From: Candidatus Levyibacteriota bacterium
GTDB lineage: Bacteria > Patescibacteriota > Microgenomatia > Levybacterales > UBA12049
Assembly (NCBI GenBank): GCA_963716145.1
Contig: OY970292.1
Span: 76,104 to 140,103 of the forward strand
Length of the DNA stretch: 64,000 bases
Reading direction: 5' to 3'
The position numbers and the translations under genes were made by a program. Of this stretch, positions 12,306 through 50,045 are shown piece after piece (position 1 is the first letter of the stretch; every line of letters starts with the position of its first letter). Below the pieces are notes generated by a model. It was not told where the DNA came from and made no database searches. It worked only from the letters and a program-made list of their open reading frames with translations.

Positions 12306-14620
12306 AGAAAATCTTACCTATCATTTTTCTTGCAATAATTATAGTTATTTTTTTCTCACTCTTACTTTTTAAGAATCGGCTTCCAATTCCAGCAGACACG
12401 ATTGTCGGCTTGTATCATCCATTCAGAGATTTATACGCGAAAGATTATCCAAATGGAATTGCTTTTAAAAATTTTCTAGTTACTGATCCAGTACGTCAGC
12501 AATATCCATGGAAAAATTTGACGATGAATATCGAAAAACGCTTTGAGTTGCCTCTTTGGAATCCGTATAATTTTGCCGGGACACCTCTTCTGGCCAATTT
12601 TCAATCAGCAGCTTTTTATCCCTTAAATCTTATTTTTTTGGTACTACCTTTCTCTATTGGTTGGAGTGGCTTAGTCTTGCTGCAGCCGTTATTGGCAGGA
12701 GTTTTTCTATATTTATATCTAAATAATCTAAAGATCAGTCGTTATTCTAGCATTTTTGGAGCGGTTAGTTTTGCGTTTTGTGGATTCTCGGTTGCATGGC
12801 TTGAGTGGGGAACCGTATCACACACCGCAATATGGTTACCTTTAGTACTTTTGTCGATAGATAAAATTATGCATAACTCAACTGACTCAAAAATTTCAAA
12901 TTTCAAATTTCAAATTTCAAATAAACAAATAAGTGTTAAGAAAAATTTAGTTTGGGCACTATTATTTTTATTTTCTCTTACCTCATCTTTTTTTGCAGGG
13001 CATTTGCAGATATTCTTTTATTTAATTATTGCATCATTTTCTTACTTCTTATTTCGTTGGTTTCAAGAGGGGAGAAATAAAAAAACTTTAATTATATTCT
13101 TAATTCTCATCTCTTTATTCTTAATACTGACAATTATTCAATGGTTGCCTACTCTACAATTTATTTTTCAAAGTGCGCGCGGAGTAGACCAAAATTGGCA
13201 AAAGGAAGGATGGTTCATTCCTTGGCAGAATCTTGCTCAATTTGTAGCGCCTGATTTTTTTGGTAACCCCACAACGCTTAACTATTGGGGAGTTTGGAAT
13301 TACGCTGAATTCATAGGATATATAGGGATAGTGCCATTAATAATGGCGGCTTGTGCATTTTTTCAAAGACGAGAAAAATTGATTATTTTTTTTGGCTCAA
13401 TCTTTTTTCTATCTCTTTTATTTTCCTTGCCCACTTTTTTTGCAATGATTCCTTTCCAGCTCCAAATCCCATTCATATCAACTGCTCAACCTACCCGACT
13501 TTTATTTTTAACAGACTTTTCGCTTGCAGTTCTGGCAGCCCTGGGAATTGATGCGTTGATGAGTTATAACAAAAGGAGGCAAATAATTTATCCACTATTA
13601 TTGGTTGGTCTTATCCTTGTTGGTTTATGGGTTTTTGTTTTTGCAGGCGCAAATTTATTGCACTCTATATCCTTGGAAAATTTAAATACCGCAAAGCGCA
13701 ATCTTTATTTCCCAACGATTATCTTTGTTGTTACAGCAGTCCTACTTTTTTCCTACGTTTCCTTAAAAAATAAAGCATATAGGTCGCTAATTTTAGTTTT
13801 GCTATTAATATTTACAGTTGGCGATCTTCTTCGGTTTACATATAAATTTACTCCCTTTACTCCTCAAAAATATCTTTATCCTAATACAAAAGCTATCGAT
13901 TTTTTGCAAAAACAAAAAGGACAATTCCGTATCATGACAACGGATGACAGAATTTTGCCCCCAAATTTCTCCATAATGTATCAGTTGCAGACACTTGACG
14001 GCTATGACCCTTTATATCTGTTAAGATACGGAGAATTAGTTACGGCGTCAGAGAGGGGAAGACCGGATATAAAACCTCCATTTGGTTTTAATAGAATAGT
14101 TACTCCACATAATTTTGAATCCAACCTGGTGGATTTGATGAATGTCCGTTTTGTTCTGAGTTTGTCTGAGATAAAATCCCCAAAATTGGAAAAGGTTTTT
14201 GAAGAAGGGCAGACAAAAATTTATAAAAATAATTCCGCTTTTCAAAGAGCTTTTTTGGTAAAAAAGATAATAGCTGTTTCCGGTAAACAAAATGCAATTA
14301 ATACACTATTTAATAGTGAAATTGATTTGAAGCAAACTGCGATAGTTGAAAATTGGAATAATAAAAAAACTGACTTTGCTCAAGGATCAGTAAGTATTGT
14401 AGAATACAAAGAGAATAATATTAGTGTTTTGGTTCAAAGTAGACAAGAAGCATTTTTAGTTCTGGTGGATACTTTCTATCCGACCTGGAGTGCACAAGTT
14501 TGTATGTCCGATGACAGTAGTTGTAAAGAGGCAAAAATTTATCTGACCGACTATAATTTCCGCGGGATAGTAATTCCAAAAGGAGTACACAAGGTAATAT
14601 TTAAGAACTCATTATTATGA
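12302..14620 (+). CDS. YfhO-family polytopic membrane protein (GT-C-type glycosyltransferase); carries an in-frame AAATTTC x4 array
   Basis: 772 aa; C-terminal DTFYPTWSA...GIVIPKGVHKVIFK is the characteristic YfhO end; ATGA overlap with flanking genes. Confidence 0.6.
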   Translation: MKKILPIIFLAIIIVIFFSLLLFKNRLPIPADTIVGLYHPFRDLYAKDYPNGIAFKNFLVTDPVRQQYPWKNLTMNIEKRFELPLWNPYNFAGTPLLANFQSAAFYPLNLIFLVLPFSIGWSGLVLLQPLLAGVFLYLYLNNLKISRYSSIFGAVSFAFCGFSVAWLEWGTVSHTAIWLPLVLLSIDKIMHNSTDSKISNFKFQISNKQISVKKNLVWALLFLFSLTSSFFAGHLQIFFYLIIASFSYFLFRWFQEGRNKKTLIIFLILISLFLILTIIQWLPTLQFIFQSARGVDQNWQKEGWFIPWQNLAQFVAPDFFGNPTTLNYWGVWNYAEFIGYIGIVPLIMAACAFFQRREKLIIFFGSIFFLSLLFSLPTFFAMIPFQLQIPFISTAQPTRLLFLTDFSLAVLAALGIDALMSYNKRRQIIYPLLLVGLILVGLWVFVFAGANLLHSISLENLNTAKRNLYFPTIIFVVTAVLLFSYVSLKNKAYRSLILVLLLIFTVGDLLRFTYKFTPFTPQKYLYPNTKAIDFLQKQKGQFRIMTTDDRILPPNFSIMYQLQTLDGYDPLYLLRYGELVTASERGRPDIKPPFGFNRIVTPHNFESNLVDLMNVRFVLSLSEIKSPKLEKVFEEGQTKIYKNNSAFQRAFLVKKIIAVSGKQNAINTLFNSEIDLKQTAIVENWNNKKTDFAQGSVSIVEYKENNISVLVQSRQEAFLVLVDTFYPTWSAQVCMSDDSSCKEAKIYLTDYNFRGIVIPKGVHKVIFKNSLL
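12889..12922. repeat. Perfect tandem heptanucleotide array (AAATTTC)x4, in frame inside the YfhO-family gene (encodes ...KISNFKFQISNK...)
   Basis: aaatttc at 12891-12897, 12898-12904, 12905-12911, 12912-12918, then partial aaat. Confidence 0.9.
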
Positions 14621-15570
14621 ATCTAAGCATTGTTATACCAAATTATAACGGGGAAAAATTGTTACAAAAAAACTTACCTCTCATTATTGAAGCGGTTAAA
14701 GATTATAAAGAAGGTAAAATTGAAATAATAATTCCGGATGACCCCTCAACCGACAATTCCAGAGAATTTATAAAGGAATTTATCGTGAGTATTAAGCAAA
14801 AAAATATAACAGGATTAACAATCAGTAATGACAAAAAAAACAAAGCTGGCTTTAGTAGAAATGTTAACAGGGGGGTTGGTATCTCAACTGGGGATATTCT
14901 AATCTTACTCAATTCAGACGTTTATCCTCATAAAGATTTTCTTGAACCGCTCCTCAAACACTTTGAAGAAGGAGAAGTTTTTGCTGTTGGATGTTTGGAC
15001 GAAAGTATTGAGAATGGTAGTAAAATTCTTCGCGGCCGGGGATTGGGGAGTTTTAAGCGCGGCTTTTTAGTTCATAGAGCAGGAAGTATTGATAAGGAAA
15101 ACACTTTGTGGGCAAGTGGGGGGAGCGGAGCGTTCAGGAAAAGTATCTGGGAGACTTTAGGTGGATTTGATCCATTGTTTGACCCATTTTATTGGGAAGA
15201 TATTGATCTTTCCTATAGAGCATTAAAGTCAGGATACAAAATCAGGTTTGAGCCAAAGAGTATTGTCATCCATGAGCATGAAAAAGGTACAGTAAAAGAA
15301 ATGTTTGAGGATGATTATGTCAAAAATATTTCTTACAGAAATCAATTTATTTTTACTTGGAAAAATATAACAGATTCTGACCTATTCATATTACACGTTG
15401 TCTGGCTGCCCTACCATCTGTTAAGAGCGCTGATTAGCGGAGATTGGCAATTTTTTAACGGGCTCTTTATGGCATTGGTAAATTTTGGTAGAATACACAA
15501 ATCAAGACAATTGGTTAAAAAATTATTTATCAAAACAGATTATCAAGTATTGAAAGACTACAAAGAATGA
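14617..15570 (+). CDS. GT2 family glycosyltransferase
   Basis: LSIVIPNYNGEKLL...IIIPDDPSTDNS; GT-A hallmarks. Confidence 0.7.
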   Translation: MNLSIVIPNYNGEKLLQKNLPLIIEAVKDYKEGKIEIIIPDDPSTDNSREFIKEFIVSIKQKNITGLTISNDKKNKAGFSRNVNRGVGISTGDILILLNSDVYPHKDFLEPLLKHFEEGEVFAVGCLDESIENGSKILRGRGLGSFKRGFLVHRAGSIDKENTLWASGGSGAFRKSIWETLGGFDPLFDPFYWEDIDLSYRALKSGYKIRFEPKSIVIHEHEKGTVKEMFEDDYVKNISYRNQFIFTWKNITDSDLFILHVVWLPYHLLRALISGDWQFFNGLFMALVNFGRIHKSRQLVKKLFIKTDYQVLKDYKE

Positions 15571-16292
15571 AATTATCCATAATTATTCCTGTTTTTAATG
15601 AGGAAAACACAATTGTTCCTGTTCTTGAAAAAGTGGAAAAGCTTATAATTCCCGGGGTTAGTAAGGAAATAATCGTAGTGGACGATGGATCGACCGATGG
15701 TTCTGCATCGGTAATTTCAAATTTCAAATCTCAAATTTCAAATAATAAAAATTATAAGTTTATTTATCATAAAAAAAATCAAGGAAAAGGAGCTGCTGTT
15801 ATATCCGGTATTAGAAACGCGACCGGGGATTATATTACTATTCAGGATGCGGATCTTGAATATGACCCATCCTACTTCACATCACTTATTGTTCCAATCA
15901 AAAAAGGCCAGGGATTAGTGGTTTACGGTACCCGGCTTAAGAGACTGCCTCATCTTTTTAACGAAGAAAGCCACGGCCTTTTCCTTTTGCATTATTTAGG
16001 GAATAGGTCTTTAAGTTTTATAACCAGTGTTTTGTACGGTCAATGGATAACCGATATGGAAACTTGTTACAAAATCTTTCCACGAGAGGCTGTTAAAGGT
16101 ATGAAGTTAAATGCAAAAGGTTTTGAGTTTGAACCTGAAATTACGGCAAAGCTGCTTAAGAAAAAATTCAAGATTGTCGAACTGCCGATATCTACTGTCC
16201 CTCGGGGTTATAACGAAGGTAAAAAACTACACACAGTTAGAGACGGAGCAAAAGCGCTTTGGTCACTGGTTAAATATCGGTTTGTTGATTAA
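15567..16292 (+). CDS. GT2 polyprenol-phosphate glycosyltransferase (DPM synthase-like); carries an in-frame AAATTTC array
   Basis: LSIIIPVFNEE...VVDDGSTDGS...IQDADLEYDP motifs. Confidence 0.7.
   Translation: MKLSIIIPVFNEENTIVPVLEKVEKLIIPGVSKEIIVVDDGSTDGSASVISNFKSQISNNKNYKFIYHKKNQGKGAAVISGIRNATGDYITIQDADLEYDPSYFTSLIVPIKKGQGLVVYGTRLKRLPHLFNEESHGLFLLHYLGNRSLSFITSVLYGQWITDMETCYKIFPREAVKGMKLNAKGFEFEPEITAKLLKKKFKIVELPISTVPRGYNEGKKLHTVRDGAKALWSLVKYRFVD
15713..15744. repeat. Tandem heptanucleotide array (AATTTCA)x4, one variant unit aatctca, in frame in the DPM-synthase-like GT2
   Basis: units at 15713-15719, 15720-15726, 15727-15733 (variant), 15734-15740; encodes ISNFKSQISNN. Confidence 0.9.
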
Positions 16293-17816: not shown

Positions 17817-19502
17817 ATGAAAAAGCTTTTTAATACAAAGATTATATTAGCTATTGTAGTTCTAATTGCGGCATTTTTACGCTTTTATCAACTTGGAGTA
17901 AATCCGCCCTCATTAACCTGGGATGAGGTGGCATGGGGATACAATGCCTATTCGATAGGGGTTGACGGACGTGATGAATTCGGAAGATTGCTGCCATATG
18001 ACTATCTTGAATCCTTCGGAGATTTTAAACCTCCAATGTATGCATATTTAAGCGTGATTCCCGTTAAGATTTTTGGTCTTAATGAATTTGCAACCCGCTT
18101 TGCCTCAGCGTTTTTTGGAACCTTAACGGTATTAATTACTTATTTTTTGGTGAAAGCTTTGTTCTCATTAAATCCGAAACAAACTCAAAATTCAAAAAAT
18201 TCATTGGGAATTGGGAATTGGGAATTGGGAATCCCAATAGTAGCAACAATATTCTTGGCAATCTCACCGTGGCACATTATGCTCTCCAGAGCTGCTTTTG
18301 AAGCAAATGTCGCAACCTTCTTTTTAGTTTTCGGAGTTACAAGTTTTCTTTATTGGATAAAGGAAAAAAATACATTTCTCATATTCTCAGTACTGTCGTT
18401 TGCTTTCTCACTTTATACATTTAATTCTGCCCGCGTAGTAGCTCCGCTTTTGGTTAGTATGTTGGTTGCGGGATTTTGGAAAACATTGTGGCAAAGGAAA
18501 AATGCTGTTATCGTAGCAGGGATTATCGGATTTTTGCTTGTTGCACCCCTTGTCCCCTTCTTGCTATCTCCACAGGCAGGATTGAGATATAAAGAGGTAA
18601 ATATTTTTTCTGATCCGCAAATTGTAGAAAAGGCTAATCAGCAAATCACCAATGATAATAACGTCTGGTGGTCAAAGATTATCCATAATCGGCGCGTAGG
18701 ATATGGATTATCTTATTTGCAACATTATTTAGATAACTTTTCCCCTGACTTTCTGTTTATAAAGGGGGACGGAAATCCCAAATTTTCCACGCAAGAAGTC
18801 GGACAAATGTATATTTGGTCATTACCATTTTTTATCTTAGGCGTACTTTTTCTATTTAAAAAGAGAGAAGGATATTGGTGGATAGTTCCTGCTTGGTTAT
18901 TGCTCGGTATTGTTCCCGCGGCAGTAGCGCGTGAGACTCCTCATGCTTTAAGGACTGAGGGGACATTGCCTACATTTCAAATACTTGAGGCTTATGGTTT
19001 TATAGGAACTCTCTTCTTTCTTAAGGAGCATTTCAGAAGGAAGATTCTTACTTTCACCTGCGCAATCTTCGGGATAATATATATGTTGAATTTTGTTTAT
19101 TTTCTTCATGGTTATTATGTTCATTATGCATGGAAATGGTCAGGTGAATGGCAGTATGGTTATAAAGATTCGATCACTTTTGTTAAAGATAATGAACAGC
19201 AATTTGATAAAATTTTCGTAACAGACTCTCTAGGAAGACCGTATGTTTATTACCTATTTTATCTACATATTTCTCCTGAAACTTTCAGAAATAATGTAAA
19301 AGTAGAACGTGATGCATTCGGATTTGTAAAAGTAAAAGAAGTTGGAAAATTTTCTTTTGAGAGTAATATTAGCGGAAGCAAGCTTAAAGGTGAGAAAGTT
19401 TTATATATTAGTGATATGAAAAATATTCCTCAAAAGGCAAAAGTTCTAAAAACGTTTTATCTCAAAAACGGAAGCCCAATATTAATTGCATACAGTATGT
19501 AA
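17817..19502 (+). CDS. PMT/ArnT-like GT-C glycosyltransferase (GT39/GT83-like); carries an in-frame TTGGGAA x4 array
   Basis: 561 aa; N-terminal loop WDEVAWGYNAYS with DE motif, ~12 TM helices, large C-terminal domain. Confidence 0.5.
   Translation: MKKLFNTKIILAIVVLIAAFLRFYQLGVNPPSLTWDEVAWGYNAYSIGVDGRDEFGRLLPYDYLESFGDFKPPMYAYLSVIPVKIFGLNEFATRFASAFFGTLTVLITYFLVKALFSLNPKQTQNSKNSLGIGNWELGIPIVATIFLAISPWHIMLSRAAFEANVATFFLVFGVTSFLYWIKEKNTFLIFSVLSFAFSLYTFNSARVVAPLLVSMLVAGFWKTLWQRKNAVIVAGIIGFLLVAPLVPFLLSPQAGLRYKEVNIFSDPQIVEKANQQITNDNNVWWSKIIHNRRVGYGLSYLQHYLDNFSPDFLFIKGDGNPKFSTQEVGQMYIWSLPFFILGVLFLFKKREGYWWIVPAWLLLGIVPAAVARETPHALRTEGTLPTFQILEAYGFIGTLFFLKEHFRRKILTFTCAIFGIIYMLNFVYFLHGYYVHYAWKWSGEWQYGYKDSITFVKDNEQQFDKIFVTDSLGRPYVYYLFYLHISPETFRNNVKVERDAFGFVKVKEVGKFSFESNISGSKLKGEKVLYISDMKNIPQKAKVLKTFYLKNGSPILIAYSM
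18204..18245. repeat. Perfect tandem heptanucleotide array (TTGGGAA)x4 ending in the palindrome ATTGGGAATCCCAAT, in frame in the PMT-like gene
   Basis: units 18204-18210, 18211-18217, 18218-18224, 18225-18231; encodes LGIGNWELGI. Confidence 0.9.
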
Positions 19503-25254: not shown

Positions 25255-25800
25255 ATGAGAATCGGAATCGACATATCGCAAACAGCTTATGAGAACACAG
25301 GAGTTGCCAACTATACAAAAAGTTGGGTTGAGGGTTTGTTGAGAGTTGATCAAGAAAATGAGTATATTCTTTTTTTCTCATCTCTGAGAAAAAAAATTCC
25401 CTCATTTGCCAAAGATTTATCAAGGCAGAAAAACTCAAAAGTCAAAATAAAAACATTTAAATATCCCCCGACTCTTCTCGACATGTTCTGGAATAGGCTA
25501 CATATTATGCCAATTGAGGATTTGATAGGACAGGTTGATGTTTTCATCTCGTCCGATTGGACTCAGCCGCCGACAAAACGGGCAAAAAAGGTGACAATAC
25601 TTTATGACCTGATCGTTTATAGATATCCTGAAGAAACAGATATTAAAATTGTTCACACGCAAAGAAGAAGATTGAATTGGGTTAAAAAAGAATGTGATGT
25701 TATTTTTTGTATCTCTGAATCAACAAAACAAGATGCAAGGGACATACTGGCGATTGAAGAGAACCGTTTAAAAGTTGTTTATCCCGGAATTCAGCTATGA
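25255..25800 (+). pseudogene. Truncated GT4 glycosyltransferase, N-terminal Rossmann half only (possible duplication remnant)
   Basis: 181 aa resembling the N-terminal half of neighbouring GT4s (MRIGID...NEYILF) and ending at the mid-protein YPGI linker; the next gene is a complete GT4. Confidence 0.4.
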
Positions 25801-26945
25801 TTATTGGAATTGATGGTAATGAAGCAAACGTTAAAAAACGTGTAGGTATCAGTGAGTACGCGTTTGAGTTGTTGCGACAATTTTCAAAAATTAATTTTCA
25901 AAACTCAAAGTTCACAATTTATTTGAAGGATGATCCAGTCAGCGATATGCCCGCTGAAAGTGAGGGTTGGAAGTACAGAATTATTAAACCAGGCAAATTG
26001 TGGACTCAGTGGAGATTACCACTTGATTTGTATTTAAGAAAGAGCAGGCCTGATGTATTTTTCTCTCCCTCTCATTATGCTCCGCGTTTTTCTCCCGTCC
26101 CGACAGTTATTTCAATTATGGATTTATCCTATCTTTATTTTCCTGAAATGTTTAATAGGGCTGATTTATTACAACTTCGTAATTGGACAGCCTATTCAGT
26201 AAAAAATGCCAAAAAGATCCTGACAATCAGTAAATCGAGCAAAAATGATATAATTAATTCATACAAAGTACCTGCGGAGAGAATAATTGTAACTTATCCG
26301 GGCATAAAACAATCGGCGTCTCTCTCACAGCACATTTATGTTATGAATCAATTAAAAGCAAGATACAAAATTTCAGATAACTATATTTTATTTGTTGGGA
26401 CACTTCAGCCGAGGAAAAATATTGAAAGGTTGATTGAGGCATTTGCCCTGATGCTGAAAAATGCGGATCTAAACGCTGAAAAACGCCAAAATTTGCAATT
26501 GGTTATTGTAGGGAAGAAAGGATGGTTATATGAAAAAATTCTGGCAGCACCCAAAAAATTTGAAATAGAAGATAAGGTAAAATTTTTAGAAAACGTAAAC
26601 GACGACGAGCTTGCAATTTTTTATAAACATGCATTATGCTTTGTTTTGCCAAGCCTATATGAGGGGTTTGGGTTGCCTGTTCTAGAGGCAATGCAGGCAG
26701 GATGCCCGGTTATAACAAGTGATGTTTCAAGCCTCCCTGAAGCAGGAGGAGATGCATGTATTTATATAGATCCCGAAGACGCGGGCGACATTGCGGACAA
26801 AATATGGAAACTCATCACAACTGAGAAACTAAGACACGAATTGATAGAAAAAGGGAAAAAGCAGGTTAAGAAATTTAGCTGGGAAAAAACTGCTAGAGAA
26901 ACCTTATCTGTTTTGGAAGAAATTGCCCAAAATAAAAATATATGA
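25797..26945 (+). CDS. GT4 family glycosyltransferase
   Basis: PSLYEGFGLPVLEAMQAGCPVITSDVSSLPEAGGDA C-terminal motif. Confidence 0.7.
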   Translation: MIIGIDGNEANVKKRVGISEYAFELLRQFSKINFQNSKFTIYLKDDPVSDMPAESEGWKYRIIKPGKLWTQWRLPLDLYLRKSRPDVFFSPSHYAPRFSPVPTVISIMDLSYLYFPEMFNRADLLQLRNWTAYSVKNAKKILTISKSSKNDIINSYKVPAERIIVTYPGIKQSASLSQHIYVMNQLKARYKISDNYILFVGTLQPRKNIERLIEAFALMLKNADLNAEKRQNLQLVIVGKKGWLYEKILAAPKKFEIEDKVKFLENVNDDELAIFYKHALCFVLPSLYEGFGLPVLEAMQAGCPVITSDVSSLPEAGGDACIYIDPEDAGDIADKIWKLITTEKLRHELIEKGKKQVKKFSWEKTARETLSVLEEIAQNKNI

Positions 26946-32938: not shown

Positions 32939-33567
32939 AGATTTTGATGGTTAGCTCCTTTCTCCCGTATCCGCTTTTTTCGGGAGGGCAGGTCAGGCTT
33001 TTTAATCTTATTAAGGAATTGTCAGCGCGTCACGAGATAACATTAATTTGTGAGAAACGTGAGAATCAAACCGCTGAGGATGAAAATGAGCTCGGGAAAA
33101 TCTGTAAAAAAATTATAACAGTTAAAAGGAAGAAGCAATGGTCAATGAGAAATATATTGAAAACTGCATTCTCTTCAAATTCATTTTTGGTTACAGGCCA
33201 CACCAACATAGAAATGCAAAATAAAATAAAAGAAGAACTAGAAAGAGAAAAGTACGATTTAATTCATGTGGAAACTTATTATATAATGCAAAATTTACCC
33301 TCTGCATTATCAATTCCTGTAGTTTTGGCGGAACACAACATAGAGTATCAGGTTTACAAGAAGTATGTTGACCAAGGATCGCTATTTTTAAAACCTTTGC
33401 TTTCTTTGGATGTTGCAAAAATACAGAAAGAGGAGGAAAGTTTTTGGAAAAAAGCTGATAAATTAATTGCAGTTTCAGGGGATGATAAAAACGCGATGGA
33501 GAAAAAGGGGCTTATGCCCGTTATTGTTGCGAATGGGGTGGACACTGAGAAATTTAGTTTTAAACTA

Positions 33568-33597
33568 GAATTAAGAATTAAGAAGCAAGAATTAAGG
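33568..33597. repeat. Tandem heptanucleotide array (GAATTAA)x4, one variant gaagcaa, in frame in the frameshifted GT4
   Basis: units 33568-33574, 33575-33581, 33582-33588 (variant), 33589-33595, then gg; encodes LELRIKKQELR. Confidence 0.9.
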
Positions 33598-33680: not shown

Positions 33681-33715
33681 AATTTCAAATTTCAAATTTC
33701 AAATTTCAAATTCTC
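33681..33715. repeat. Tandem heptanucleotide array (AATTTCA)x4 plus variant aattctc, in frame in the same GT4
   Basis: units 33681-33687, 33688-33694, 33695-33701, 33702-33708, 33709-33715 (variant); encodes ISNFKFQISNSQ. Confidence 0.9.
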
Positions 33716-34140
33716 AATTAAAATTGTGGATTGTTGGGAGAGAGATTCCGGACTCTATAAAAAACTTAACAAATGATCAAGATATCATTTTTGATGAAGA
33801 AGGATCAGCTAGGCCAACGGAAGAATTATTCCAGGAGGCTGATATTCTTTTTGGCTCCGATCAGAATAGGCGGAGGGACTAGTTATAAAATACTTGAGAG
33901 CATGAGCAGTGGTACGCCCGTCGTAACTACAGAACTTAGCGCAAGTGTAATTGATGCAAAGGATAGCATAAATATTATGGTAGGCAAAAATGCTCAAGAG
34001 CTATCTGAAAAAACATTAAAGCTTCTTTCTGATAAAAGACTTTATCAAGCAGTGGCAAAAAATGGGCGGAGCTTGATTGAAGAAAAATACACATGGAGAA
34101 AAATCGCCAATGAGCTGGATAAAGTTTATAAAAGTCTGAT

Positions 34141-35079: not shown

Positions 35080-36195
35080 ATGAAAATTGGCATTGATGCA
35101 AGGCTTTGGAGCGAAACTGGAGTTGGGAGATATATCCGCAATTTGGTAAAGGAACTTCAAGTATTGGACAAGAAGAATGAGTATGTTTTGTTTGTCAGAA
35201 AGGCAGATTACGATAAGGTTAAATTTCAAATTTCAAATGATAAATTCCATATCAGAATTGCGGATATCCGTTGGCACACAATTGACGAGCAGCTGAAGCT
35301 TCCTCATATACTAGATAAAGAAAATGTGGACTTGGTTCATTTTCCTTATTTTTCTGTTCCTGTGGGTTACAAAAAGCCTTTCGTTATGACAATTCATGAT
35401 TTGATTCTTAATCATTTCCCGACAGGTAAAGCCTCCAAGCTCCCTCTGTATTTATATCAATTAAAGCGTCTTGGCTATGATTATGTAGTAAAAAAAGCAG
35501 TGAAGAGAGCGCAAAAAATTATCGTTCCCCTCAATGCTGTCAGAGATGATTTGGTAGCAACACTTGGAGTCAAAGAAGAAAAAGTTGCTGTAACGTATGA
35601 AGGCTTTGATGAAAAAATAATCAGTAAAGATAAGTCATCGATTGATGATACTAAATATTTTTTGTATGTTGGGAACGCATATCCACACAAGAATATCGAA
35701 AGACTAATAAAAGCCTTTTCCCTTTTTAGAAAAGAACAAAATGCAGAAGTACATTTGCTGTTGGTTGGCAAGGACGACTATTTTTATAAAAAACTTTCAG
35801 AAAAAATAAGGAAAGAAAATTATTCTGGAATTTTGATAAGGAACAATGTAAAAGATTATGAGCTTGCAAATTATTATAATAACGCTATAGCGCTCATTTC
35901 CCCCTCTCTTATGGAAGGATTTGGACTTCCGGTGCTTGAAGCAATGGCATCATCATGTGCCGTACTTGCGTCAGATATTCCCTCACTCAGAGAAGTGTGC
36001 GAAGGTGCGGCGTTATACTTTAATCCGCATTCTATTACAGAGATAAAAGATAAAATGAATCTTATTTTTAATACTGACAAAGAAACTCTAGAAAAATTAA
36101 TAAATAAAGGATTAGATCGTTCTCAGCAATTTTCCTGGAAAAAAATGGCAGAACAAACACTGAAAGTTTATGAAAGTTGCTTTAGTTTACGATAG
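35080..36195 (+). CDS. GT4 family glycosyltransferase; carries short AAATTTC x2 array
   Basis: MKIGIDARLW N-term and SPSLMEGFGLPVLEAMASSCAVLASDIPSLREV C-term. Confidence 0.7.
   Translation: MKIGIDARLWSETGVGRYIRNLVKELQVLDKKNEYVLFVRKADYDKVKFQISNDKFHIRIADIRWHTIDEQLKLPHILDKENVDLVHFPYFSVPVGYKKPFVMTIHDLILNHFPTGKASKLPLYLYQLKRLGYDYVVKKAVKRAQKIIVPLNAVRDDLVATLGVKEEKVAVTYEGFDEKIISKDKSSIDDTKYFLYVGNAYPHKNIERLIKAFSLFRKEQNAEVHLLLVGKDDYFYKKLSEKIRKENYSGILIRNNVKDYELANYYNNAIALISPSLMEGFGLPVLEAMASSCAVLASDIPSLREVCEGAALYFNPHSITEIKDKMNLIFNTDKETLEKLINKGLDRSQQFSWKKMAEQTLKVYESCFSLR
35221..35238. repeat. Short tandem array (AAATTTC)x2 plus partial, in frame in GT4 35080..36195
   Basis: units 35221-35227, 35228-35234, then aaatgat; encodes KFQISND. 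Confidence 0.8.
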
Positions 36196-37258
36196 GATCA
36201 ATAAATGGGGCGGTGCTGAGAGGCTTCTCCTTGCGCTTCATGAATTATTCCCTGAAGCGTCTCTTTATACATCCGTTTATGATAAGGAAAAAGCTCTTTG
36301 GGCAGAAGTTTTTGATATTAGAACTTCTTTTCTGCAAAACATTCCATTTGCCTCAACAAATCATGAACTTCTTGCAGCGTTTATGCCTTTGGCATTTGAA
36401 AGTTTTACTTTTGACGAGTATGATTTGGTGATCTCACTAACTAGTGAGGCAGCAAAAGGAATTATCACAAAACCCGGTACAATACATATTTGTTATTGCC
36501 TAACCCCTACCCGGTATTTGTGGAGCGGTTATGACGAATACTTCAAGAGTGATAGTCTCAAAATTATGTCAAAACCTATTGTTTCAGGTCTTCGCAGGTG
36601 GGATATAGCAGCGAGCAGACGGCCAGATGCCTTTATCGCGATATCCAAGGAAGTTCAAAAAAGAATTAAAAAATATTATGGAAGAGAATCTGATTTGGTT
36701 TATCCGCCAGTGACATTGAGCGCAAGAGCGCAAGAGCGCAAGAGCGCAACGAAGGAAGGAGAATATTTTCTAGTTGTGTCACGTTTGTCAAAGTTTACGG
36801 GATATAAGAGAGTTGACTTGGTTATTGAAGCTGTCAATGAACTTAAAATTCCTTTGAAAATTATTGGGGATGGAAGCTTGAGAAAAGAACTGGAACAAAT
36901 GGCAGGACCGACAATCGAATTTATAGGAAATGTTAATGATGATGAATTGGGTGGATATTACAAAAACTGCAAAGCATTGATCTTTCCGGGGAAAGAGGAC
37001 TTGGGGTTGGTAATGATTGAGGCACAAATGTTTGGAAAACCGGTTATTGCTTACAAGGAAGGTGGAGCTGTAGAATTGGTGATTGAGGCCAAGACGGGAA
37101 TATTTTTCCAGCAGCAAACAAAAAAATCATTAATTGAAGCGCTACAGAAATTTGAAAAAACCAAATTTGATTCAAAAGCCTGCAGAAAAAATGCAGAAAA
37201 ATTTAGCATGGATAAATTTAAGCAAAATTTCTTGTCGGTTGTGAATAAATTGATTTGA
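36170..37258 (+). CDS. GT4 family glycosyltransferase; carries GAGCGCAA x4 array
   Basis: MKVALVYDRINKWGGAERLL N-term, FPGKEDLGLVMIEAQMFGKPVIAYKEGG C-term; 26-nt overlap with upstream gene. Confidence 0.65.
   Translation: MKVALVYDRINKWGGAERLLLALHELFPEASLYTSVYDKEKALWAEVFDIRTSFLQNIPFASTNHELLAAFMPLAFESFTFDEYDLVISLTSEAAKGIITKPGTIHICYCLTPTRYLWSGYDEYFKSDSLKIMSKPIVSGLRRWDIAASRRPDAFIAISKEVQKRIKKYYGRESDLVYPPVTLSARAQERKSATKEGEYFLVVSRLSKFTGYKRVDLVIEAVNELKIPLKIIGDGSLRKELEQMAGPTIEFIGNVNDDELGGYYKNCKALIFPGKEDLGLVMIEAQMFGKPVIAYKEGGAVELVIEAKTGIFFQQQTKKSLIEALQKFEKTKFDSKACRKNAEKFSMDKFKQNFLSVVNKLI
36718..36749. repeat. Perfect tandem octanucleotide array (GAGCGCAA)x4, in frame in GT4 36170..37258
   Basis: units 36718-36725, 36726-36733, 36734-36741, 36742-36749; encodes SARAQERKSAT. 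Confidence 0.9.
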
Positions 37259-39071: not shown

Positions 39072-39110
39072 TTGACATTTTTGGGCAAATTTTCGTAAGA
39101 TATATAAATG
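39072..39110 (+). promoter_or_regulatory. Candidate sigma70-type promoter TTGACA-18-TAAGAT ending at the ATG of the 39108 ORF (possible leaderless transcript)
   Basis: ttgaca at 39072-39077, taagat at 39096-39101, atg at 39108; motif tttttggg...atatataaatgg shared with the mraZ upstream region. Confidence 0.35.
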
Positions 39111-43821: not shown

Positions 43822-43864
43822 TTCATAGTTTAGAAATTAGAAATAAAATTAGAGAGGCAGGAAT

Positions 43865-44302
43865 ATGTTAATTGGACAGTATGAAAGTAAAATTGGTGAA
43901 AAACATCAAGCAGCATTACCTAAAAAATTCAGGGAGATTCTTGGTGACCGATTAATTATTACAAAGGGGTTTGAAAATTGCTTGATTGTAGTGTCAGTCG
44001 ACAATTGGAAAACTCTTCTGGAAGGAACGGAGGGAAAACCGTTTACGAGTAAAGCAACGCGTGAATTGCAAAGGTTTTTATTGGGAAACGCGACAGACAT
44101 AACGCTTGACAGTAAAGGAAGATTTGTAATACCTGAATATTTAAGAGAATTCGCAAGCATAAAAACTGAAGTAGTCATAGCCGGAATTGAGAGATTTATC
44201 GAGATCTGGGACAAAGGTAAATGGGAAGATCAGCAAAAGGAATTGAGTAAAAACATTGAATCAATCGCAGAAAGGCTGTCCGAAGGAAAGAGTGAATCAT
44301 GA
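43865..44302 (+). CDS. mraZ: Transcriptional regulator MraZ
   Basis: MLIGQYESKIGEKHQAALPKKFREIL and second repeat RFVIPEYLREFA typical of duplicated MraZ/SpoVT-AbrB-like halves; first gene of dcw cluster. Confidence 0.8.
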   Translation: MLIGQYESKIGEKHQAALPKKFREILGDRLIITKGFENCLIVVSVDNWKTLLEGTEGKPFTSKATRELQRFLLGNATDITLDSKGRFVIPEYLREFASIKTEVVIAGIERFIEIWDKGKWEDQQKELSKNIESIAERLSEGKSES

Positions 44303-44323
44303 ATAAAGAATTAAGAATTAAGG
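44301..44323. repeat. GAATTAA-type array (gaataaa gaattaa gaattaa gg) starting inside and just after the mraZ stop codon, intergenic mraZ-rsmH
   Basis: mraZ TGA at 44300-44302; units 44301-44307, 44308-44314, 44315-44321. Confidence 0.85.
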
Positions 44324-44371
44324 GAAATTAAACCATAATTCATACTTCATAATTCTTGATTCTAAAAAAAG

Positions 44372-45271
44372 ATGGGTAATACATATCACACGACAGTACT
44401 TTTAGAAGAAACAGTAGATGGTTTAAATGTTAAAGAAGGGAAGAAATATATCGACGCTACATTGGGAGGAGGAGGACACAGTTTTGAGATTTTGAAGCGC
44501 GGAGGGAGAGTATTGGGTTTGGATGCAGATCAAGATGCGCTTGATTTTGTTCAGGAAGAATTAAGAATTAAGAATCAAGAATTAAGGTTTGAAAAGAAAA
44601 ATTTAACCTTAGCAAAGGGAAATTTTAAGGACATTGATAAAATTGCAACAGAATTTGGATTTGAAAAAGTTTTTGGCATTGTTTTTGATCTTGGGGTCTC
44701 GAGCCACCAGCTAGACACTGTGGAAAGAGGGTTTAGTTTTCAAAGCACTGGCCCTTTAGACATGCGGATGGATCGAGATCTTAGCGTCAAAGCTGCGGAT
44801 TTGGTAAATATCCTAACGAAAGGAGAGCTTTATGAGTTATTTAATAAACTGGGTGAGGAGCATTTTGCTCACGCCATATCAGAAAGTATTGTTAGCAGTC
44901 GCCGAGTAAGTCCAATTAAGACGACATCAGAATTGGTAGAAATTGTAAGAAGCGCCGTGCCAAGACTGAAACATAATATTAATCCGGCGACTAAAGTATT
45001 TCAAGCGCTGAGAATTGCGATAAACGATGAGTTTAATAACTTGAAGGAAGCTCTACCAAAAGCACTGGAGTTATTGGATGCACATGGAAGATTAGCCGTA
45101 ATCGCGTTTCATTCACTTGAGGATAGAATAATAAAAAATCAATTTAAAGAATTTGCTGAAATGGGACAGGGAGTCATTATTACAAAAAAACCGATTAGTC
45201 CAAGTTTTGCTGAAATTGAAGGAAACAGGCGCTCAAGAAGCGCAAAATTAAGAATTATTGAAAAGATATAA
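44372..45271 (+). CDS. rsmH: 16S rRNA (cytosine1402-N4)-methyltransferase RsmH; contains in-frame GAATTAA x4 insertion
   Basis: YHTTVLLEETVDGL...DATLGGGGHS...FDLGVSSHQLD...RGFSF signature; follows mraZ. Confidence 0.85.
   Translation: MGNTYHTTVLLEETVDGLNVKEGKKYIDATLGGGGHSFEILKRGGRVLGLDADQDALDFVQEELRIKNQELRFEKKNLTLAKGNFKDIDKIATEFGFEKVFGIVFDLGVSSHQLDTVERGFSFQSTGPLDMRMDRDLSVKAADLVNILTKGELYELFNKLGEEHFAHAISESIVSSRRVSPIKTTSELVEIVRSAVPRLKHNINPATKVFQALRIAINDEFNNLKEALPKALELLDAHGRLAVIAFHSLEDRIIKNQFKEFAEMGQGVIITKKPISPSFAEIEGNRRSRSAKLRIIEKI
44558..44587. repeat. Tandem heptanucleotide array (GAATTAA)x4, one variant gaatcaa, in frame inside rsmH (encodes EELRIKNQELR, apparent ~10-aa loop insertion)
   Basis: units 44558-44564, 44565-44571, 44572-44578 (variant), 44579-44585, then gg. 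Confidence 0.9.
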
Positions 45272-48765: not shown

Positions 48766-50043
48766 TTGCTATACTATCGGTACAGCAATATGTGGCAAAA
48801 AACAAAAAATCAATATCATCTGGGGCAAGCGCTACTTGCAAATATTATTTACATGTTTCCATCCAGAAAACTTAAAATAATTGGAGTCACGGGAACAGAT
48901 GGAAAAACAACTACTGCAACCCTCATTCATCATATTTTAATAAACTCGGGACATAAAGCTTCTCTTATCACCACGGTCGGCGCCGTAATAAATGATAAAT
49001 TTTCGGATATTGGCTTTCATGTTACAACTCCCGGGCGGTTCGCGCTGCAGTCGTATCTGAAAAGATCAAAAAAACAAGGCTCTGAATATATTGTGCTTGA
49101 ACTGACTTCTCATGCGCTTGATCAATACCGTGCTTTTGGAATCCCAATTGAGGTTGGTGTTCTGACCAATGTCAGTAACGAGCATCTGGATTATCATAAA
49201 ACTTATGAAAAGTATGTGGCTGCGAAATTAAAATTGCTCAAAAAGGCAAAAATTGCAATTGTAAATAAGGACGATAAGTCGTATAAGTTTGCAAAAGTCT
49301 CTTTAAAAAATAAGAGAATAATAACTTATGGAATGAAAAAAGACGCTGATGTTAATCCGCACAATTTTCCATTCAAAACAAAATTAATTGGCAAGTTTAA
49401 TCTCTATAATTCTCTAGCTGCTATTTCAGTGCTTCAGCAAATGCACGTAGCTGAAGAAGATATAAAGAAGGGTATTTTAAGTTTTATGCTACCGGCAGGC
49501 AGACAGGAGATAATTTATGATAAAGAATTTACAGTAATTAATGATTTTGCTCATACGCCAAATTCTTTTTTAAGCGTTCTTCCTGAAATAAAGAAACTCA
49601 CCAAACGCAAGCTAATTCATGTTTTTGGAGCTGCGGGAAAAAGAGATAAATATAAAAGAGCGGAAATGGGTAAAATATCCTCGGACTATGCGGATGTTAT
49701 TATTCTCACAGCTGAAGATCCGAGAAACGAAATAATTGAGGAGATTAACAGGCAGATAATGTCGGGAATTACAGATGCCGAGTTTGGGATCGTAAATTAC
49801 GAAGCACTCAAAAATAGAGAAGTGTATCTGGACACAAAAAACAAATATGTTATCTCAATTCCTGACAGGAGAGACGCGATTAATTTTGCGATTGAAATTG
49901 TCCAAAAGGGTGATTTAGTTTTACTAACCGGCAAGGGTCATGAAAAATCTATAGACTATGGAAAAGGGGAGGAGCCATGGAATGAGAAGGAAACGGCATG
50001 GCAAGCAATTGAAAGGAATAAAGAATCAAGAATCAAGAATTAA
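48766..50043 (+). CDS. murE: Mur ligase family protein, MurE-like (P-loop GVTGTDGKTTT, DNPR-like EDPR motif) lacking the N-terminal UDP-binding domain; probable ATG start at 48790; stop codon lies inside a GAATTAA-type array
   Basis: Central and C-terminal Mur ligase domains present; P-loop only ~40 residues from the N-terminus (about 110 in E. coli MurE); TAEDPRNE motif. Confidence 0.55.
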   Translation: MLYYRYSNMWQKTKNQYHLGQALLANIIYMFPSRKLKIIGVTGTDGKTTTATLIHHILINSGHKASLITTVGAVINDKFSDIGFHVTTPGRFALQSYLKRSKKQGSEYIVLELTSHALDQYRAFGIPIEVGVLTNVSNEHLDYHKTYEKYVAAKLKLLKKAKIAIVNKDDKSYKFAKVSLKNKRIITYGMKKDADVNPHNFPFKTKLIGKFNLYNSLAAISVLQQMHVAEEDIKKGILSFMLPAGRQEIIYDKEFTVINDFAHTPNSFLSVLPEIKKLTKRKLIHVFGAAGKRDKYKRAEMGKISSDYADVIILTAEDPRNEIIEEINRQIMSGITDAEFGIVNYEALKNREVYLDTKNKYVISIPDRRDAINFAIEIVQKGDLVLLTGKGHEKSIDYGKGEEPWNEKETAWQAIERNKESRIKN

Positions 50044-50045
50044 GG
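50016..50045. repeat. GAATTAA-type array (gaataaa gaatcaa gaatcaa gaattaa gg) forming the last codons and TAA stop of the murE-like gene
   Basis: units 50016-50022, 50023-50029, 50030-50036, 50037-50043; stop TAA 50041-50043 is inside the last unit. Confidence 0.9.

What the first reader, a model, noticed from the sequence alone, without database searches (positions are those of the whole stretch)
12889..50045. Ten short tandem arrays with 7- or 8-bp units, ~4 copies each, all intragenic ones in frame: candidate contingency loci or micro-insertion system
Directly seen in sequence: ten perfect or near-perfect tandem arrays of four unit types, AAATTTC (4 sites), GAATTAA (4 sites), TTGGGAA (1) and GAGCGCAA (1). 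Each is about 28-32 bp. Eight lie inside ORFs and all eight preserve the reading frame, adding roughly 10 amino acids such as ISNFKFQISN or ELRIKNQELR. Unit lengths of 7 and 8 are not multiples of 3, so gain or loss of a single unit by slipped-strand mispairing would switch the gene off or on. That is the classic signature of phase-variable surface-glycosylation genes; heptanucleotide repeats in glycosyltransferase genes have precedent (e.g. Neisseria pglE, recalled from memory). Six arrays are in glycosyltransferase or GT-C genes. The same units also occur in rsmH, across the murE stop and just downstream of the mraZ stop, which simple local slippage does not explain. That distribution suggests a dispersed, possibly templated, insertion process instead. 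Ten such arrays in 64 kb is far above chance expectation.
Basis: partly seen in the sequence, partly recalled or inferred. Interest (0 to 1): 0.8.

Follow-up and report, generated by a model that had tools for sequence, protein, structure and literature searches.

The report
In-frame heptanucleotide repeat cassettes, Levybacteria
The ten short 7- or 8-base tandem arrays are real, but they are old, stable, in-frame microsatellites that code for small helix or loop segments in a candidate-phyla-radiation (CPR) bacterium and its relatives, and nothing found here suggests they are on/off gene switches.

Summary
The arrays are real. There are 7 heptamer arrays of at least 3.4 copies, against 0.01 expected from shuffles, and an independent short-read assembly reproduces those it covers. 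The window comes from a 1.14 Mb Patescibacteria (Levybacteria-like) contig.

The contingency-locus reading is not supported:
- Arrays have only about 4-5 units.
- Copy number did not change between assemblies or between strains 99.35% identical.
- The only frameshift nearby is a T5/T4 homopolymer difference, not an array.
- The same protein sites carry arrays in orthologues at 58-81% identity (rsmH, two GT2s, YfhO, PMT, three GT4s, the murE stop, the mraZ-rsmH spacer).

At those shared sites the unit differs between lineages while the arrays stay near-perfect, often with no change in length. That is concerted turnover.

Every reading frame of a heptamer array gives the same 7-residue peptide. 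In the GT2 enzyme the array encodes surface helix alpha-2 (AlphaFold model). GAATTAA carries TAA in every frame. Intragenic copies have TAA changed to CAA at the in-frame unit, and murE uses that TAA as its stop.

Identical units are shared within genomes more than expected (p=0.006), so copying between arrays is plausible.

Closest known: cyanobacterial STRR and Xanthomonas/Nostoc heptamer repeats. Here the arrays are AT-rich, mostly intragenic, and in CPR.

The parts
12891..12922 (+). AAATTTC x4.6 in a YfhO-family membrane protein (12302-14620); encodes ISNFKFQISN
   Evidence: It is part of a 12-aa insertion relative to the L223 orthologue, which has the seed-like AGAATTTTAAAC at that spot. 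L225 and L140 carry an AGTATTA array at the same loop.
15713..15743 (+). AAATTTC/AAATCTC x4.4 in a GT2 glycosyltransferase (15567-16292); encodes ISNFKSQISN, which is helix alpha-2
   Evidence: Of 100 parsed orthologues, 31 have at least 4 lag-7 residue matches at this site, with many different units. In the AlphaFold2 model (pLDDT 87) the helix spans residues 46-57 and covers most of the array peptide, residues 49-59.
18177..18238 (+). PMT-family (GT-C) loop: a decayed AAATACA-type array (18177-18202), then ATTGGGA x4.3 (18203-18232), then one inverted unit CCCAAT
   Evidence: L225 has an intact AAATACA array (INPKQIQNTKYKILNT) at the same loop. Other relatives lack the whole segment.
25881..25915 (+). 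Decayed heptamer array (nnnTCAA units) in a GT4 gene (25797-26945)
   Evidence: The orthologous site in L303 has the perfect 31-nt AAATTTC cassette at equal length, with no gap in the alignment.
33567..33596 (+). GAATTAA x4.3, third unit GAAGCAA, in GT4a; encodes ELRIKKQELR
   Evidence: It has the same start phase, end phase (…GAATTAAGG) and codon phase as the rsmH array. The in-frame TAA is replaced by CAA. Orthologue P0251 has EIRIKNQELR at this site and L303 has no array there.
33681..33717 (+). AAATTTC x5.1 (four 7-nt units plus one 8-nt unit, 36 nt in all) in GT4a; encodes ISNFKFQISNSQ
   Evidence: L303 has AAAAATC x4.6 at the same place and the same length. P0277 (60% identity) has ISNFKFQISNFQ. 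Logan contig L227 starts inside this array.
35221..35255 (+). AAATTTC x2.6 followed by three decayed units, in GT4b (35080-36195)
   Evidence: L303 has AAAGTTC x4.7 at the same site, and both proteins are 371 aa.
36718..36749 (+). GAGCGCAA x4.0 (octamer) in the interdomain linker of GT4c (36170-37258); encodes LSARAQERKSA
   Evidence: The linker is hypervariable in 120 orthologues, and many carry AAATACA-type heptad peptides (NPKQIQNTKYKIQNT). L303 has two heptamer arrays here.
44294..44362 (+). mraZ-rsmH spacer: GAATTAA x3.4 (starting on the mraZ TGA) plus an inverted copy (ATAATTC units, 44334-44362), which together form an imperfect hairpin
   Evidence: RNA fold -17.3 kcal/mol, z = -2.3. 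L001 has the same arrangement, with a 20-nt GC palindrome nested in the left array. L004 has an inverted pair of GGGTAAA arrays at this spot.
44556..44586 (+). GAATTAA x4.4, third unit GAATCAA, in rsmH (44372-45271); encodes ELRIKNQELR
   Evidence: Compared with solved RsmH structures the query is 10 aa (1wg8) or 7 aa (1m6y) longer in this segment. Arrays at the same place: L002 (identical), L005, L001 (AAGTTAA), L004 (AGATTAA), L008 (AGAATTC), L010.
50013..50044 (+). GAATAAA/GAATCAA/GAATTAA x4.1-4.6 spanning the murE stop (a TAA inside the array) and ending 5 nt before the next gene's ATG
   Evidence: L003 (GAATTAA/GAAGTAA units, stop TAG inside the array) and L004 (GAGTTGA units, stop TGA inside the array) carry arrays at the same junction.

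Best explanation
The arrays belong to a lineage-wide class of dispersed heptanucleotide microsatellites, of the kind known as STRR in cyanobacteria and as heptameric SSRs in Xanthomonas and Nostoc. Here they sit in a compact, AT-rich Levybacteria-like (CPR/Patescibacteria) genome, where most of them have to lie inside genes.

How it works, step by step:
1. Inferred: an array arises from, and is renewed by, misaligned copying in a 7-nt register at AT-rich seeds. This could be replication slippage, copying from another array of the same genome (ectopic conversion or template switching), or both.
2. Shown: 7 and 3 share no factor, so every reading frame of an array encodes the same 7-residue peptide, and three units make one heptad.
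3. Shown: arrays survive in ORFs only in the stop-free orientation and at an in-frame length. GAATTAA has TAA in all frames. Its intragenic copies carry TAA changed to CAA at exactly the in-frame unit, and murE uses the in-frame TAA as its stop.
4. Shown: arrays occupy structurally tolerant places. These are helix alpha-2 of a GT-A fold, the interdomain linker of GT-B enzymes, loops of GT-C membrane proteins, a segment where this RsmH is longer than solved structures, and junctions between co-directional genes.
5. Shown for the pattern, inferred for the process: the sites are old and shared with orthologues at 58-81% identity, but the unit differs between lineages while the arrays stay near-perfect, often at identical length. 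That is concerted evolution.
6. Shown, on limited data: copy number is stable, so the arrays do not act as on/off switches.

The encoded heptad peptides are most likely tolerated by-products that supply helix or linker material. The inverted pair in the mraZ-rsmH spacer may form an RNA or DNA hairpin.
For: - Arrays far exceed chance, and the excess is specific to period 7.
- Density is 38 arrays in 323 kb of Levybacteria loci, against 10 in 717 kb of GT2 loci from other phyla. The thresholds differ slightly: at least 3.0 copies with up to 3 mismatches for the first count, at least 3.4 copies with up to 2 mismatches for the second.
- Copy number peaks at 4-5 units: 24 of 38 arrays.
- Orthologous sites are occupied, with different units: rsmH, GT2, YfhO and PMT loops, the murE stop, the mraZ-rsmH spacer, the GT4c linker, both GT4a sites and GT4b.
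- Units change with no change in length: window AAATTTC versus L303 AAAAATC at GT4a site 2; a perfect array in L303 versus a decayed one in the window at the GT4 gene 25797-26945.
- The array peptide lies in a confident surface helix.
- Stability: Logan versus window; L141 versus L140, 99.35% identical with no change in array length.
- Within-genome sharing of identical units: 7 of 17 identical-unit pairs, permutation p=0.006.
- Heptamer period is favoured in IMG/VR contigs. 24-nt arrays of four different exact AT-rich heptamers hit 18-23 contigs each; a fifth probe, GAATYAA, is degenerate at one position and hit 35. A hexamer array hit 6 and an octamer array hit 4.
- Literature: heptameric SSRs are over-represented in bacteria, prefer four units, form inverted pairs and sit near stop codons in Xanthomonas and Nostoc (PMC4692102).
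Against: - No read-level data were available, so low-frequency gain or loss of a unit cannot be excluded.
- The process that keeps arrays perfect was not observed. Slippage in single units would pass through frameshifted intermediates.
- Insertions relative to array-free orthologues are 36 nt in the two cases measured (YfhO versus L223, and L303:9052 versus the window), not the 21 nt expected from a simple three-unit expansion. The periodic tract at GT4a site 2 is also 36 nt.
- Same-phase, same-frame 31-nt cassettes at unrelated sites, and a composite cassette (AATCCnAAACAAATAC…) shared by PMT and GT4c genes of different genomes, fit copying between loci better than purely local slippage.
- Conservation of the intergenic arrays could reflect a function that was not tested.
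- Only about 78 kb of the 1.14 Mb genome could be read.
Confidence: 0.6

Rival explanations
1. Contingency loci. Slipped-strand gain or loss of one 7- or 8-nt unit switches the glycosyltransferase genes (and rsmH) off and on, producing variation in surface glycans.
For: Unit lengths are not multiples of 3, and seven arrays lie in six glycosylation genes. If slippage is what homogenises the arrays, variants with one unit more or less must arise at some rate.
Against: - Only 4-5 units per array.
- Identical copy number in an independent assembly, and between strains 99.35% identical.
- Protein length at the array site is nearly constant across about 100 orthologues; 238 aa dominates.
- Arrays also occur in rsmH and at the mraZ and murE junctions.
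- Arrays lie mid-gene in structural elements, not near the 5' ends.
- The one frameshift is at a homopolymer and is absent from the short-read assembly.
Confidence: 0.05
2. A dispersed micro-cassette system. Discrete pieces of about 31-36 nt (for example ATTTCAAATTTCAAATTTCAAATTTCAAAT, encoding ISNFKFQISN) are copied from array to array, or into new sites, by a trans-acting or templated process. Candidates are ectopic gene conversion, template switching, or an unknown mobility function. This would continually rewrite fixed protein sites with the genome's current units.
For: - Four AAATTTC and four GAATTAA arrays share start phase, end phase and codon phase.
- Within-genome sharing of identical units, p=0.006.
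- L303 has the same 31-nt AAATTTC cassette in another gene, and at GT4a site 2 it carries AAAAATC, the unit of its own neighbouring array at L303:9052.
- Arrays are replaced at equal length.
- A composite cassette is shared by PMT and GT4c genes of different genomes.
- AAATTTC and GAATTAA are no commoner across IMG/VR than shuffled heptamers, so intrinsic expandability does not explain the sharing.
Against: - No recombinase, reverse transcriptase or transposase was linked to the arrays, although only the ten array-bearing ORFs of the window were scanned against Pfam.
- No target-site duplications.
- Seed-like sequences exist at empty sites.
- Other genomes (L224, L140) show mostly different units at different sites.
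- The sharing statistic is driven mainly by the window genome.
- At about 30 nt the arrays are at the lower limit for RecA-mediated conversion (own knowledge).
Confidence: 0.15
3. Functional nucleic-acid motifs. The arrays would be binding sites for a multimeric DNA- or RNA-binding protein, or building blocks of hairpins that act on transcription, processing or translational coupling. The coding copies would be constrained by both roles.
For: - Arrays persist at intergenic junctions (murE stop, mraZ-rsmH spacer) across 58-76% identical relatives.
- The inverted pair folds better than shuffles (z = -2.3) and is conserved in L001.
- All four GAATTAA arrays end in TTAAGG, a Shine-Dalgarno-like sequence that sits 5 nt before the next ATG at murE.
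- Tandem heptads bound cooperatively by a repressor have a precedent in the omega protein of pSM19035 (own knowledge).
Against: - At least four unit types occur in one 64 kb window, and many more in relatives at the same sites, so there is no single recognisable motif.
- No Rfam family matches.
- The hairpin has no T-run after it.
- Units are not enriched relative to shuffled heptamers in other genomes.
- No candidate binding protein was identified.
Confidence: 0.12
4. Assembly or sequencing artefact.
For: The window carries two homopolymer-length discrepancies against the short-read contigs.
Against: The arrays covered by independent Logan contigs are identical. Logan proteins P0003 and P0005 carry the same peptides for 15713 and 18203. 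The same kind of array occurs at the same sites in dozens of independent assemblies.
Confidence: 0.01

Closest known systems
Heptameric SSRs of Xanthomonas and Nostoc (GGGNATC / GGGGAYT; Rehm et al. 2015, PMC4692102) and cyanobacterial STRR heptamers (Calothrix PCC 7601, cited there)
   Same: Tandem 7-nt units dispersed over the genome. A few unit types dominate in each genome. There is a clear preference for about four units. Closely spaced inverted pairs occur. Arrays sit between co-directional genes and near stop codons. Length and sequence vary between related species at the same loci.
   Different: Here the units are AT-rich and cannot form G-quadruplexes, so the four-unit preference needs another explanation in this lineage. 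8 of 10 arrays are intragenic and in frame, against 7-11% intragenic in Xanthomonas. The host is a CPR bacterium with a genome of about 1.1 Mb, not a large genome.
Excess of long SSRs with 5-11 nt units, heptamers most of all, in prokaryotes (Mrazek et al. 2007, as summarised in PMC4692102)
   Same: The excess is specific to period 7. [quoted passage not shown]
   Different: That class was reported mainly in large genomes, in non-pathogens and at high G+C. This is a small, 35% G+C, reduced genome. The original paper could not be read here.
Phase-variable contingency loci (for example heptanucleotide tracts at Haemophilus hmw1A, PMC8262952; Neisseria pgl genes, from memory)
   Same: SSRs whose unit is not a multiple of three, some of them in glycosyltransferase genes.
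   Different: Here the tracts are short, copy number is stable, the arrays are conserved in frame across deep orthologues, and they also occur in housekeeping genes and at gene ends.
Rickettsia palindromic elements (in-frame selfish insertions in ORFs; own knowledge) and the small dispersed repeats of Nostoc (Elhai et al. 2008, cited in PMC3116915; text not available)
   Same: Very small repeated sequences tolerated in frame inside protein-coding genes at surface positions. In relatives of this genome, GC-rich elements of about 20-30 nt are nested inside the heptamer arrays. I recall, but could not verify, that the Nostoc elements are associated with heptamer repeats.
   Different: The window's arrays are tandem heptamers, not palindromes of 100-150 nt. 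No mobility evidence such as clean empty sites was obtained for the arrays themselves.

Membership tests
Contingency locus (phase-variable SSR) | SSR in an ORF or promoter whose unit length is not a multiple of 3 | tested here: met
   Units are 7 or 8 nt, and eight arrays lie in ORFs.
Contingency locus (phase-variable SSR) | Copy-number polymorphism between cells, strains or assemblies | tested here: not met
   Logan and window arrays are identical. L141 and L140 are 99.35% identical with no change in array length. Read-level data were not available.
Contingency locus (phase-variable SSR) | Out-of-frame (OFF) alleles caused by the tract | tested here: not met
   All eight ORFs read through their arrays. 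The only frameshift (33848) is a T5/T4 homopolymer difference and is absent from the short-read contig.
Contingency locus (phase-variable SSR) | Tract long enough to be hypermutable, and restricted to variable surface functions | tested here: not met
   Arrays have 2.6-5.1 units. They also occur in rsmH and at the mraZ and murE ends. The mutation rate itself was not measured.
Dispersed heptanucleotide SSRs (STRR / GGGNATC class) | Tandem heptamer units, many dispersed loci, few unit types per genome | tested here: met
   Nine heptamer arrays of three main units in 37 kb. 38 arrays in 323 kb of related loci. The whole 1.14 Mb genome could not be read.
Dispersed heptanucleotide SSRs (STRR / GGGNATC class) | Modal length of about four units | tested here: met
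   24 of 38 arrays have 4.0-5.0 copies. The same preference is reported in PMC4692102.
Dispersed heptanucleotide SSRs (STRR / GGGNATC class) | Predominantly intergenic, between co-directional ORFs and near stop codons; inverted pairs | tested here: inconclusive
   Junction arrays and an inverted pair are present, but 8 of 10 window arrays are intragenic.
Dispersed heptanucleotide SSRs (STRR / GGGNATC class) | G-rich unit able to form a G-quadruplex (Rehm et al. subclass only) | tested here: not met
   The units AAATTTC and GAATTAA have no G-tracts. Only ATTGGGA has a GGG run.
In-frame mobile micro-elements (RPE / SDR-like) | The same discrete sequence at unrelated sites, with empty sites in relatives | tested here: inconclusive
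   Same-phase 31-nt cassettes occur at four sites, and in a different gene in L303. However, the 'empty' sites hold decayed arrays or seeds rather than clean junctions.
In-frame mobile micro-elements (RPE / SDR-like) | Palindromic or hairpin-forming element body | tested here: not met
   The arrays are direct repeats. Only the nested GC-rich inserts in relatives (L001, L139, L140, L225) are hairpin-like, and none was found in the window.

The most novel reading that the evidence does not exclude
Levybacteria may maintain a pool of 31-36 nt heptad-coding cassettes that are copied between fixed 'slots' in many proteins by a templated or conversion process specific to each genome. These arrays may in turn serve as landing pads for a GC-rich micro-element of about 20-30 nt that inserts in any of the three reading frames. 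Together these would form a previously undescribed system of micro-mobile coding DNA that generates loop and helix diversity in CPR surface-glycosylation enzymes.
Probability: 0.12. Interest if true: 0.8.

Novelty: new variant of a known kind. Interest (0 to 1): 0.5.

Why it matters
Heptamer repeats are a long-noted but unexplained excess in bacterial genomes. This lineage offers three things.

1. A natural control. The four-unit preference and the inverted pairs persist with AT-rich units that cannot form G-quadruplexes. That argues against G4 formation as the general reason for those features.

2. A system in which the arrays lie in alignable coding sequence. Orthologous sites can therefore be followed across hundreds of genomes, and unit turnover, conversion and decay can be measured directly.

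3. A concrete route by which DNA-level repeat dynamics supply ready-made heptad (amphipathic helix) segments to proteins.

It also warns annotators not to call such arrays phase-variable from unit length alone.

Tried and rejected
- **Universal functional motif.** Rejected. Shuffled-composition heptamer arrays (AATATTC, ATTAATC, AAGATAT) hit as many IMG/VR contigs (22, 23, 18) as AAATTTC (22) and the degenerate probe GAATYAA (35).
- **Array-caused frameshift in GT4a.** Rejected. The cause is a T5/T4 homopolymer difference at 33848.
- **-1 ribosomal frameshift site.** AAATTTC fits the X XXY YYZ pattern, but the other units do not, and every ORF continues in the zero frame. Not pursued.
- **MraZ operator repeats for the weak TTAGAAA array at 43830.** Not tested.
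- **Protein-level selection as the source of the periodicity.** Rejected. The DNA is periodic at 7 nt, not merely at 21 nt.
- **Metagenome scan with the GT2 protein.** It returned mostly distant homologues at 40-53% identity. These served only as a background density.
- **Search of the window for the GC-rich nested element.** 0 matches.
- **Rfam.** No family matched.
- **Papers.** Elhai 2008 and Mrazek 2007 could not be retrieved. Searches for CPR/Patescibacteria together with SSR or tandem-repeat terms found nothing.
- **A simple '+3 units = +21 nt' rule for insertions.** It does not hold cleanly; the two measured insertions are 36 nt.
- **Lag-7 control segments.** Uninformative, because conserved residues dominate them.

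Full report
**Observation.** Tandem Repeats Finder lists all ten arrays at the reported coordinates, and reading the sequence confirms them.
- AAATTTC occurs at 12891 (x4.6), 15713 (x4.4), 33681 (x5.1) and 35221 (only x2.6).
- GAATTAA occurs at 33567, 44301, 44556 and 50016.
- ATTGGGA occurs at 18203, and the octamer GAGCGCAA x4.0 at 36718.

With my own detector there are 7 heptamer arrays of at least 3.4 copies. The mean is 0.01 in 100 block shuffles and 0.0 in 100 triplet shuffles. Periods 6 and 9, which would be the easiest to tolerate in genes, have none. Pfam places the eight intragenic arrays in a YfhO protein, a GT2, a PMT-type GT-C, three GT4 enzymes (one of which holds two arrays) and RsmH. 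The other two lie at the mraZ stop and across the murE stop.

**Source and reliability.** RsmH and GT2 relatives are Candidatus Levybacteria/Levyibacteriota and other Patescibacteria. The window's proteins map to one 1,142,061-bp contig. Independent short-read Logan contigs of run ERR11593400 are 99.96-99.99% identical over 21.6 kb (33684-55271), and the arrays in that span are unchanged. For the arrays at 15713 and 18203, Logan proteins P0003 and P0005 carry the same array peptides. The arrays at 12891 and 33567 had no independent coverage. One Logan contig begins inside the 33681 array. The only indels are two homopolymer differences. T5 versus T4 at 33848 splits GT4a in the window into 32935-33882 and 33773-34144, while the short-read version is intact.

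**Coding logic (read directly from the sequence).** Because 7 and 3 share no factor, all three frames of a heptamer array read the same seven codons in rotation. AAATTTC always gives KFQISNF, and three units make one 7-residue repeat. The reverse orientation of AAATTTC has TGA in every frame. GAATTAA has TAA in every frame. In rsmH and GT4a the one in-frame TAA is CAA (units GAATCAA and GAAGCAA). In murE the first in-frame TAA is AAA, and the last one is the gene's stop codon. This is what selection on pre-existing DNA repeats looks like. It is not what selection for a periodic protein looks like, because that would not produce 7-nt periodicity.

**The sites are old.**
- *rsmH.* L002 (identical array), L005, L001 (AAGTTAA), L004 (AGATTAA), L008 (AGAATTC) and L010 all carry an array of 3.4-4.6 copies at exactly the window's position. 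L003, L007 and L009 have degenerate periodic remnants there.
- *GT2.* Of 100 parsed orthologues at 63-81% identity, 31 have at least four lag-7 residue matches at the same spot. The peptides include ISNFKFQISN, ISNLKSQISNL, ISNFQFPISNF, IKNLKFKIKN, IQNSEFRIQN and IKDLRLKIKD. DNA from L224, L225, L226 and L140 confirms heptamer arrays with different units.
- *Other sites.* The same holds for a neighbouring GT2 paralogue, the YfhO loop and the PMT loop, the murE stop (L003 and L004, each with its stop codon inside its own array), the mraZ-rsmH spacer, the GT4c interdomain linker, and both GT4a sites and GT4b.

**Units turn over while length stays fixed.** The closest relative with a long contig is L303, at 70-77% nucleotide identity.
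- At GT4a site 2 it has AAAAATC x4.6 where the window has AAATTTC x5.1, with no gap in the alignment.
- At the GT4 gene 25797-26945 it has a perfect 31-nt AAATTTC array where the window has an equal-length decayed one.
- At GT4b it has AAAGTTC x4.7 where the window keeps 2.6 units plus three decayed ones, and both proteins are 371 aa.
- At the GT4c linker it has two heptamer arrays where the window has the octamer.

Arrays are therefore renewed or replaced in place, and they decay in place.

**Against phase variation.** Copy number is 4-5 in 24 of 38 arrays across 323 kb of Levybacteria loci. It did not change between the two assemblies, or between L141 and L140 at 99.35% identity. GT2 length is 238 aa in most orthologues, and the longer ones carry a different nested insert, not extra units. 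The arrays lie in structural elements. The AlphaFold2 model of the GT2 enzyme (pLDDT 87.4) puts residues 46-57 in helix alpha-2, right after the DDGSTD motif, and the array peptide is residues 49-59. Aligned with solved RsmH structures, the query is 10 aa (1wg8) or 7 aa (1m6y) longer in the array segment.

**Is something more than local slippage at work?** Several observations point that way.
- The three long AAATTTC arrays begin AATTTC and end TTTCAAAT in the same codon phase (ISN…ISN). The short 35221 array ends the same way, in the same codon phase.
- All four GAATTAA arrays end GAATTAAGG.
- Across 15 genomes' loci, 7 of 17 pairs with identical units fall within one genome (permutation p=0.006; p=0.001 before L303 and 9.5 kb of upstream sequence from L301 were added).
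- L303 carries the same 31-nt AAATTTC cassette in another gene. At GT4a site 2 it uses the unit of its own neighbouring array at L303:9052.
- A composite sequence, AATCCnAAACAAATAC followed by AAATAC units, occurs in a PMT gene (L225) and in a GT4c gene (L303).
- These two units are not intrinsically favoured. Composition-matched heptamer arrays are equally common in IMG/VR contigs, whereas hexamer and octamer arrays of the same length are four to five times rarer.

Against a dedicated insertion system:
- Empty sites hold seeds or decayed arrays (L223 AGAATTTTAAAC at the YfhO site; window AAATTTCAAAT at the L303:9052 site).
- There are no target-site duplications.
- Other genomes show mostly different units at different sites.

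I therefore favour slippage together with occasional copying between arrays. I treat a dedicated templated mechanism as a minority possibility.

**Intergenic arrays.** The GAATTAA array at the mraZ stop and an inverted copy (44334-44362) fold into an imperfect hairpin (-17.3 kcal/mol, z = -2.3). L001 keeps the same arrangement, and L004 has an inverted pair of GGGTAAA arrays there. No Rfam family matches anywhere in the window.

**Comparison with what is known.** Rehm et al. 2015 (PMC4692102) describe GGGNATC and GGGGAYT heptamers in Xanthomonas and Nostoc. Those arrays are dispersed, range from 2 to 26 units with a clear preference for four, often come as convergent pairs, lie mostly between co-directional ORFs and near stops, and are intragenic in only 7-11% of cases. 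The authors attribute the four-unit preference to G-quadruplex formation. They cite Mrazek 2007 for the general heptamer excess and for a polymerase-slippage hypothesis, and Calothrix for the STRR heptamers. The present arrays share the period, the modal length, the pairs and the junction positions. They differ in being AT-rich, mostly in frame inside genes, and in a CPR genome. I found no paper on this for CPR. I file it as a new variant of a known kind.

**Limits.**
- Only about 78 kb of the genome was readable (window).
- No reads were available.
- The homogenising process is inferred, not observed.
- My recollection that the Nostoc small dispersed repeats sit in heptamer arrays could not be checked.

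Noticed in passing
window 33848 and 38506: There are two homopolymer-length differences between the window and the short-read Logan contig L227: T5 versus T4, and C4 versus C3. The first splits a GT4 gene into ORFs 32935-33882 and 33773-34144. The second changes the Bac_transf ORF, which is 222 aa in the window and 150 aa as called in Logan. These look like residual long-read errors or minor variants.
   Followed up: yes
L139:1177-1211; L140:10161-10184; L225 (PMT gene, 'SDPSASLRAR'); L001:5548-5567: GC-rich inserts of about 20-30 nt are nested inside, or placed next to, heptamer arrays in relatives. L140 ACCCTTCGGCGTGGCTCAGGACAAG and L225 ACCCTTCGGCTTCACTCAGGGCGAG are the same element in different genes and different reading frames. 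Protein alignments show recurrent LRQGFGGQA, FAKASRGE, DPSA.LQDD and SGQARMT inserts in GT2, GT4a and GT4c orthologues. L001 has a perfect 20-nt palindrome, CCTGCCTGCCGGCAGGCAGG. None was found in the window.
   Followed up: partly
L227 position 1 (= window 33684): The Logan contig starts inside the AAATTTC array.
   Followed up: partly
L083 (67% GC, 6.5 kb), L088/L089, L105, L109, L134, L135 (IMG/VR contigs): Contigs of very different GC content hold 5-10 heptamer arrays each, with units such as GGATTTR, AATTGTC, AATTATG and AATTAGA. On the ORF lists of L083 and L088, most arrays fall in the gaps between ORFs. Their hosts were not identified.
   Followed up: partly
L225:17613-17704 and 19279-19346: Two tandem PMT paralogues each carry an AGACTTA array, followed about 40 nt later by an inverted TCTTACG array, at roughly equivalent positions. 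These could form hairpins inside coding sequence.
   Followed up: no
window 50054-50077: A 9-nt repeat (AAATTTAGT-like, x2.8) sits at the very start of the gene after murE and encodes MKIYKFSKFKS. It comes directly after the murE-stop heptamer array.
   Followed up: no
window 39143-39185: An isolated GC-rich stretch, AAGTCCACCGCTCGCCTCGCAGCGAAGCGGGCCTGCCTCAAGT, lies near the 5' end of ORF 39108-41132 in an otherwise 35-40% GC region. It shares short motifs (CTTCGC, GGCGAGC) with the nested element in L139.
   Followed up: no
window 14761-14796: At the position where relatives' GT2 paralogue carries heptamer arrays, the window gene (14617-15570) has a 12-nt repeat instead (GAATTTATnnnn, encoding EFIKEFIVSIK).
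   Followed up: no
L056:113-134, 3927-3953, 13074-13095 (Omnitrophota); L078:7800-7830 (NC10): Other uncultured phyla fetched through rsmH also carry several arrays of one heptamer unit in 20 kb (CGGTTTA in both orientations; CTGTTAC).
   Followed up: no
L301:5500-5526 (about 4.5 kb upstream of the window start): Another heptamer array (TCAAATA/TCAAATT x3.9) fills the junction between a GT2 gene and an MptA_B-family gene. It ends …TTTCAAATG, and that ATG coincides with the called start of the next gene (L301:5525).
   Followed up: partly
L303:16982-17781: The closest relative's contig carries a split IS-type transposase (DUF4096 plus DDE_Tnp_1) between the Bac_transf and RecO genes. The window's ORF list shows no ORF pair of matching sizes (122 and 143 aa) in that interval.
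   Followed up: no
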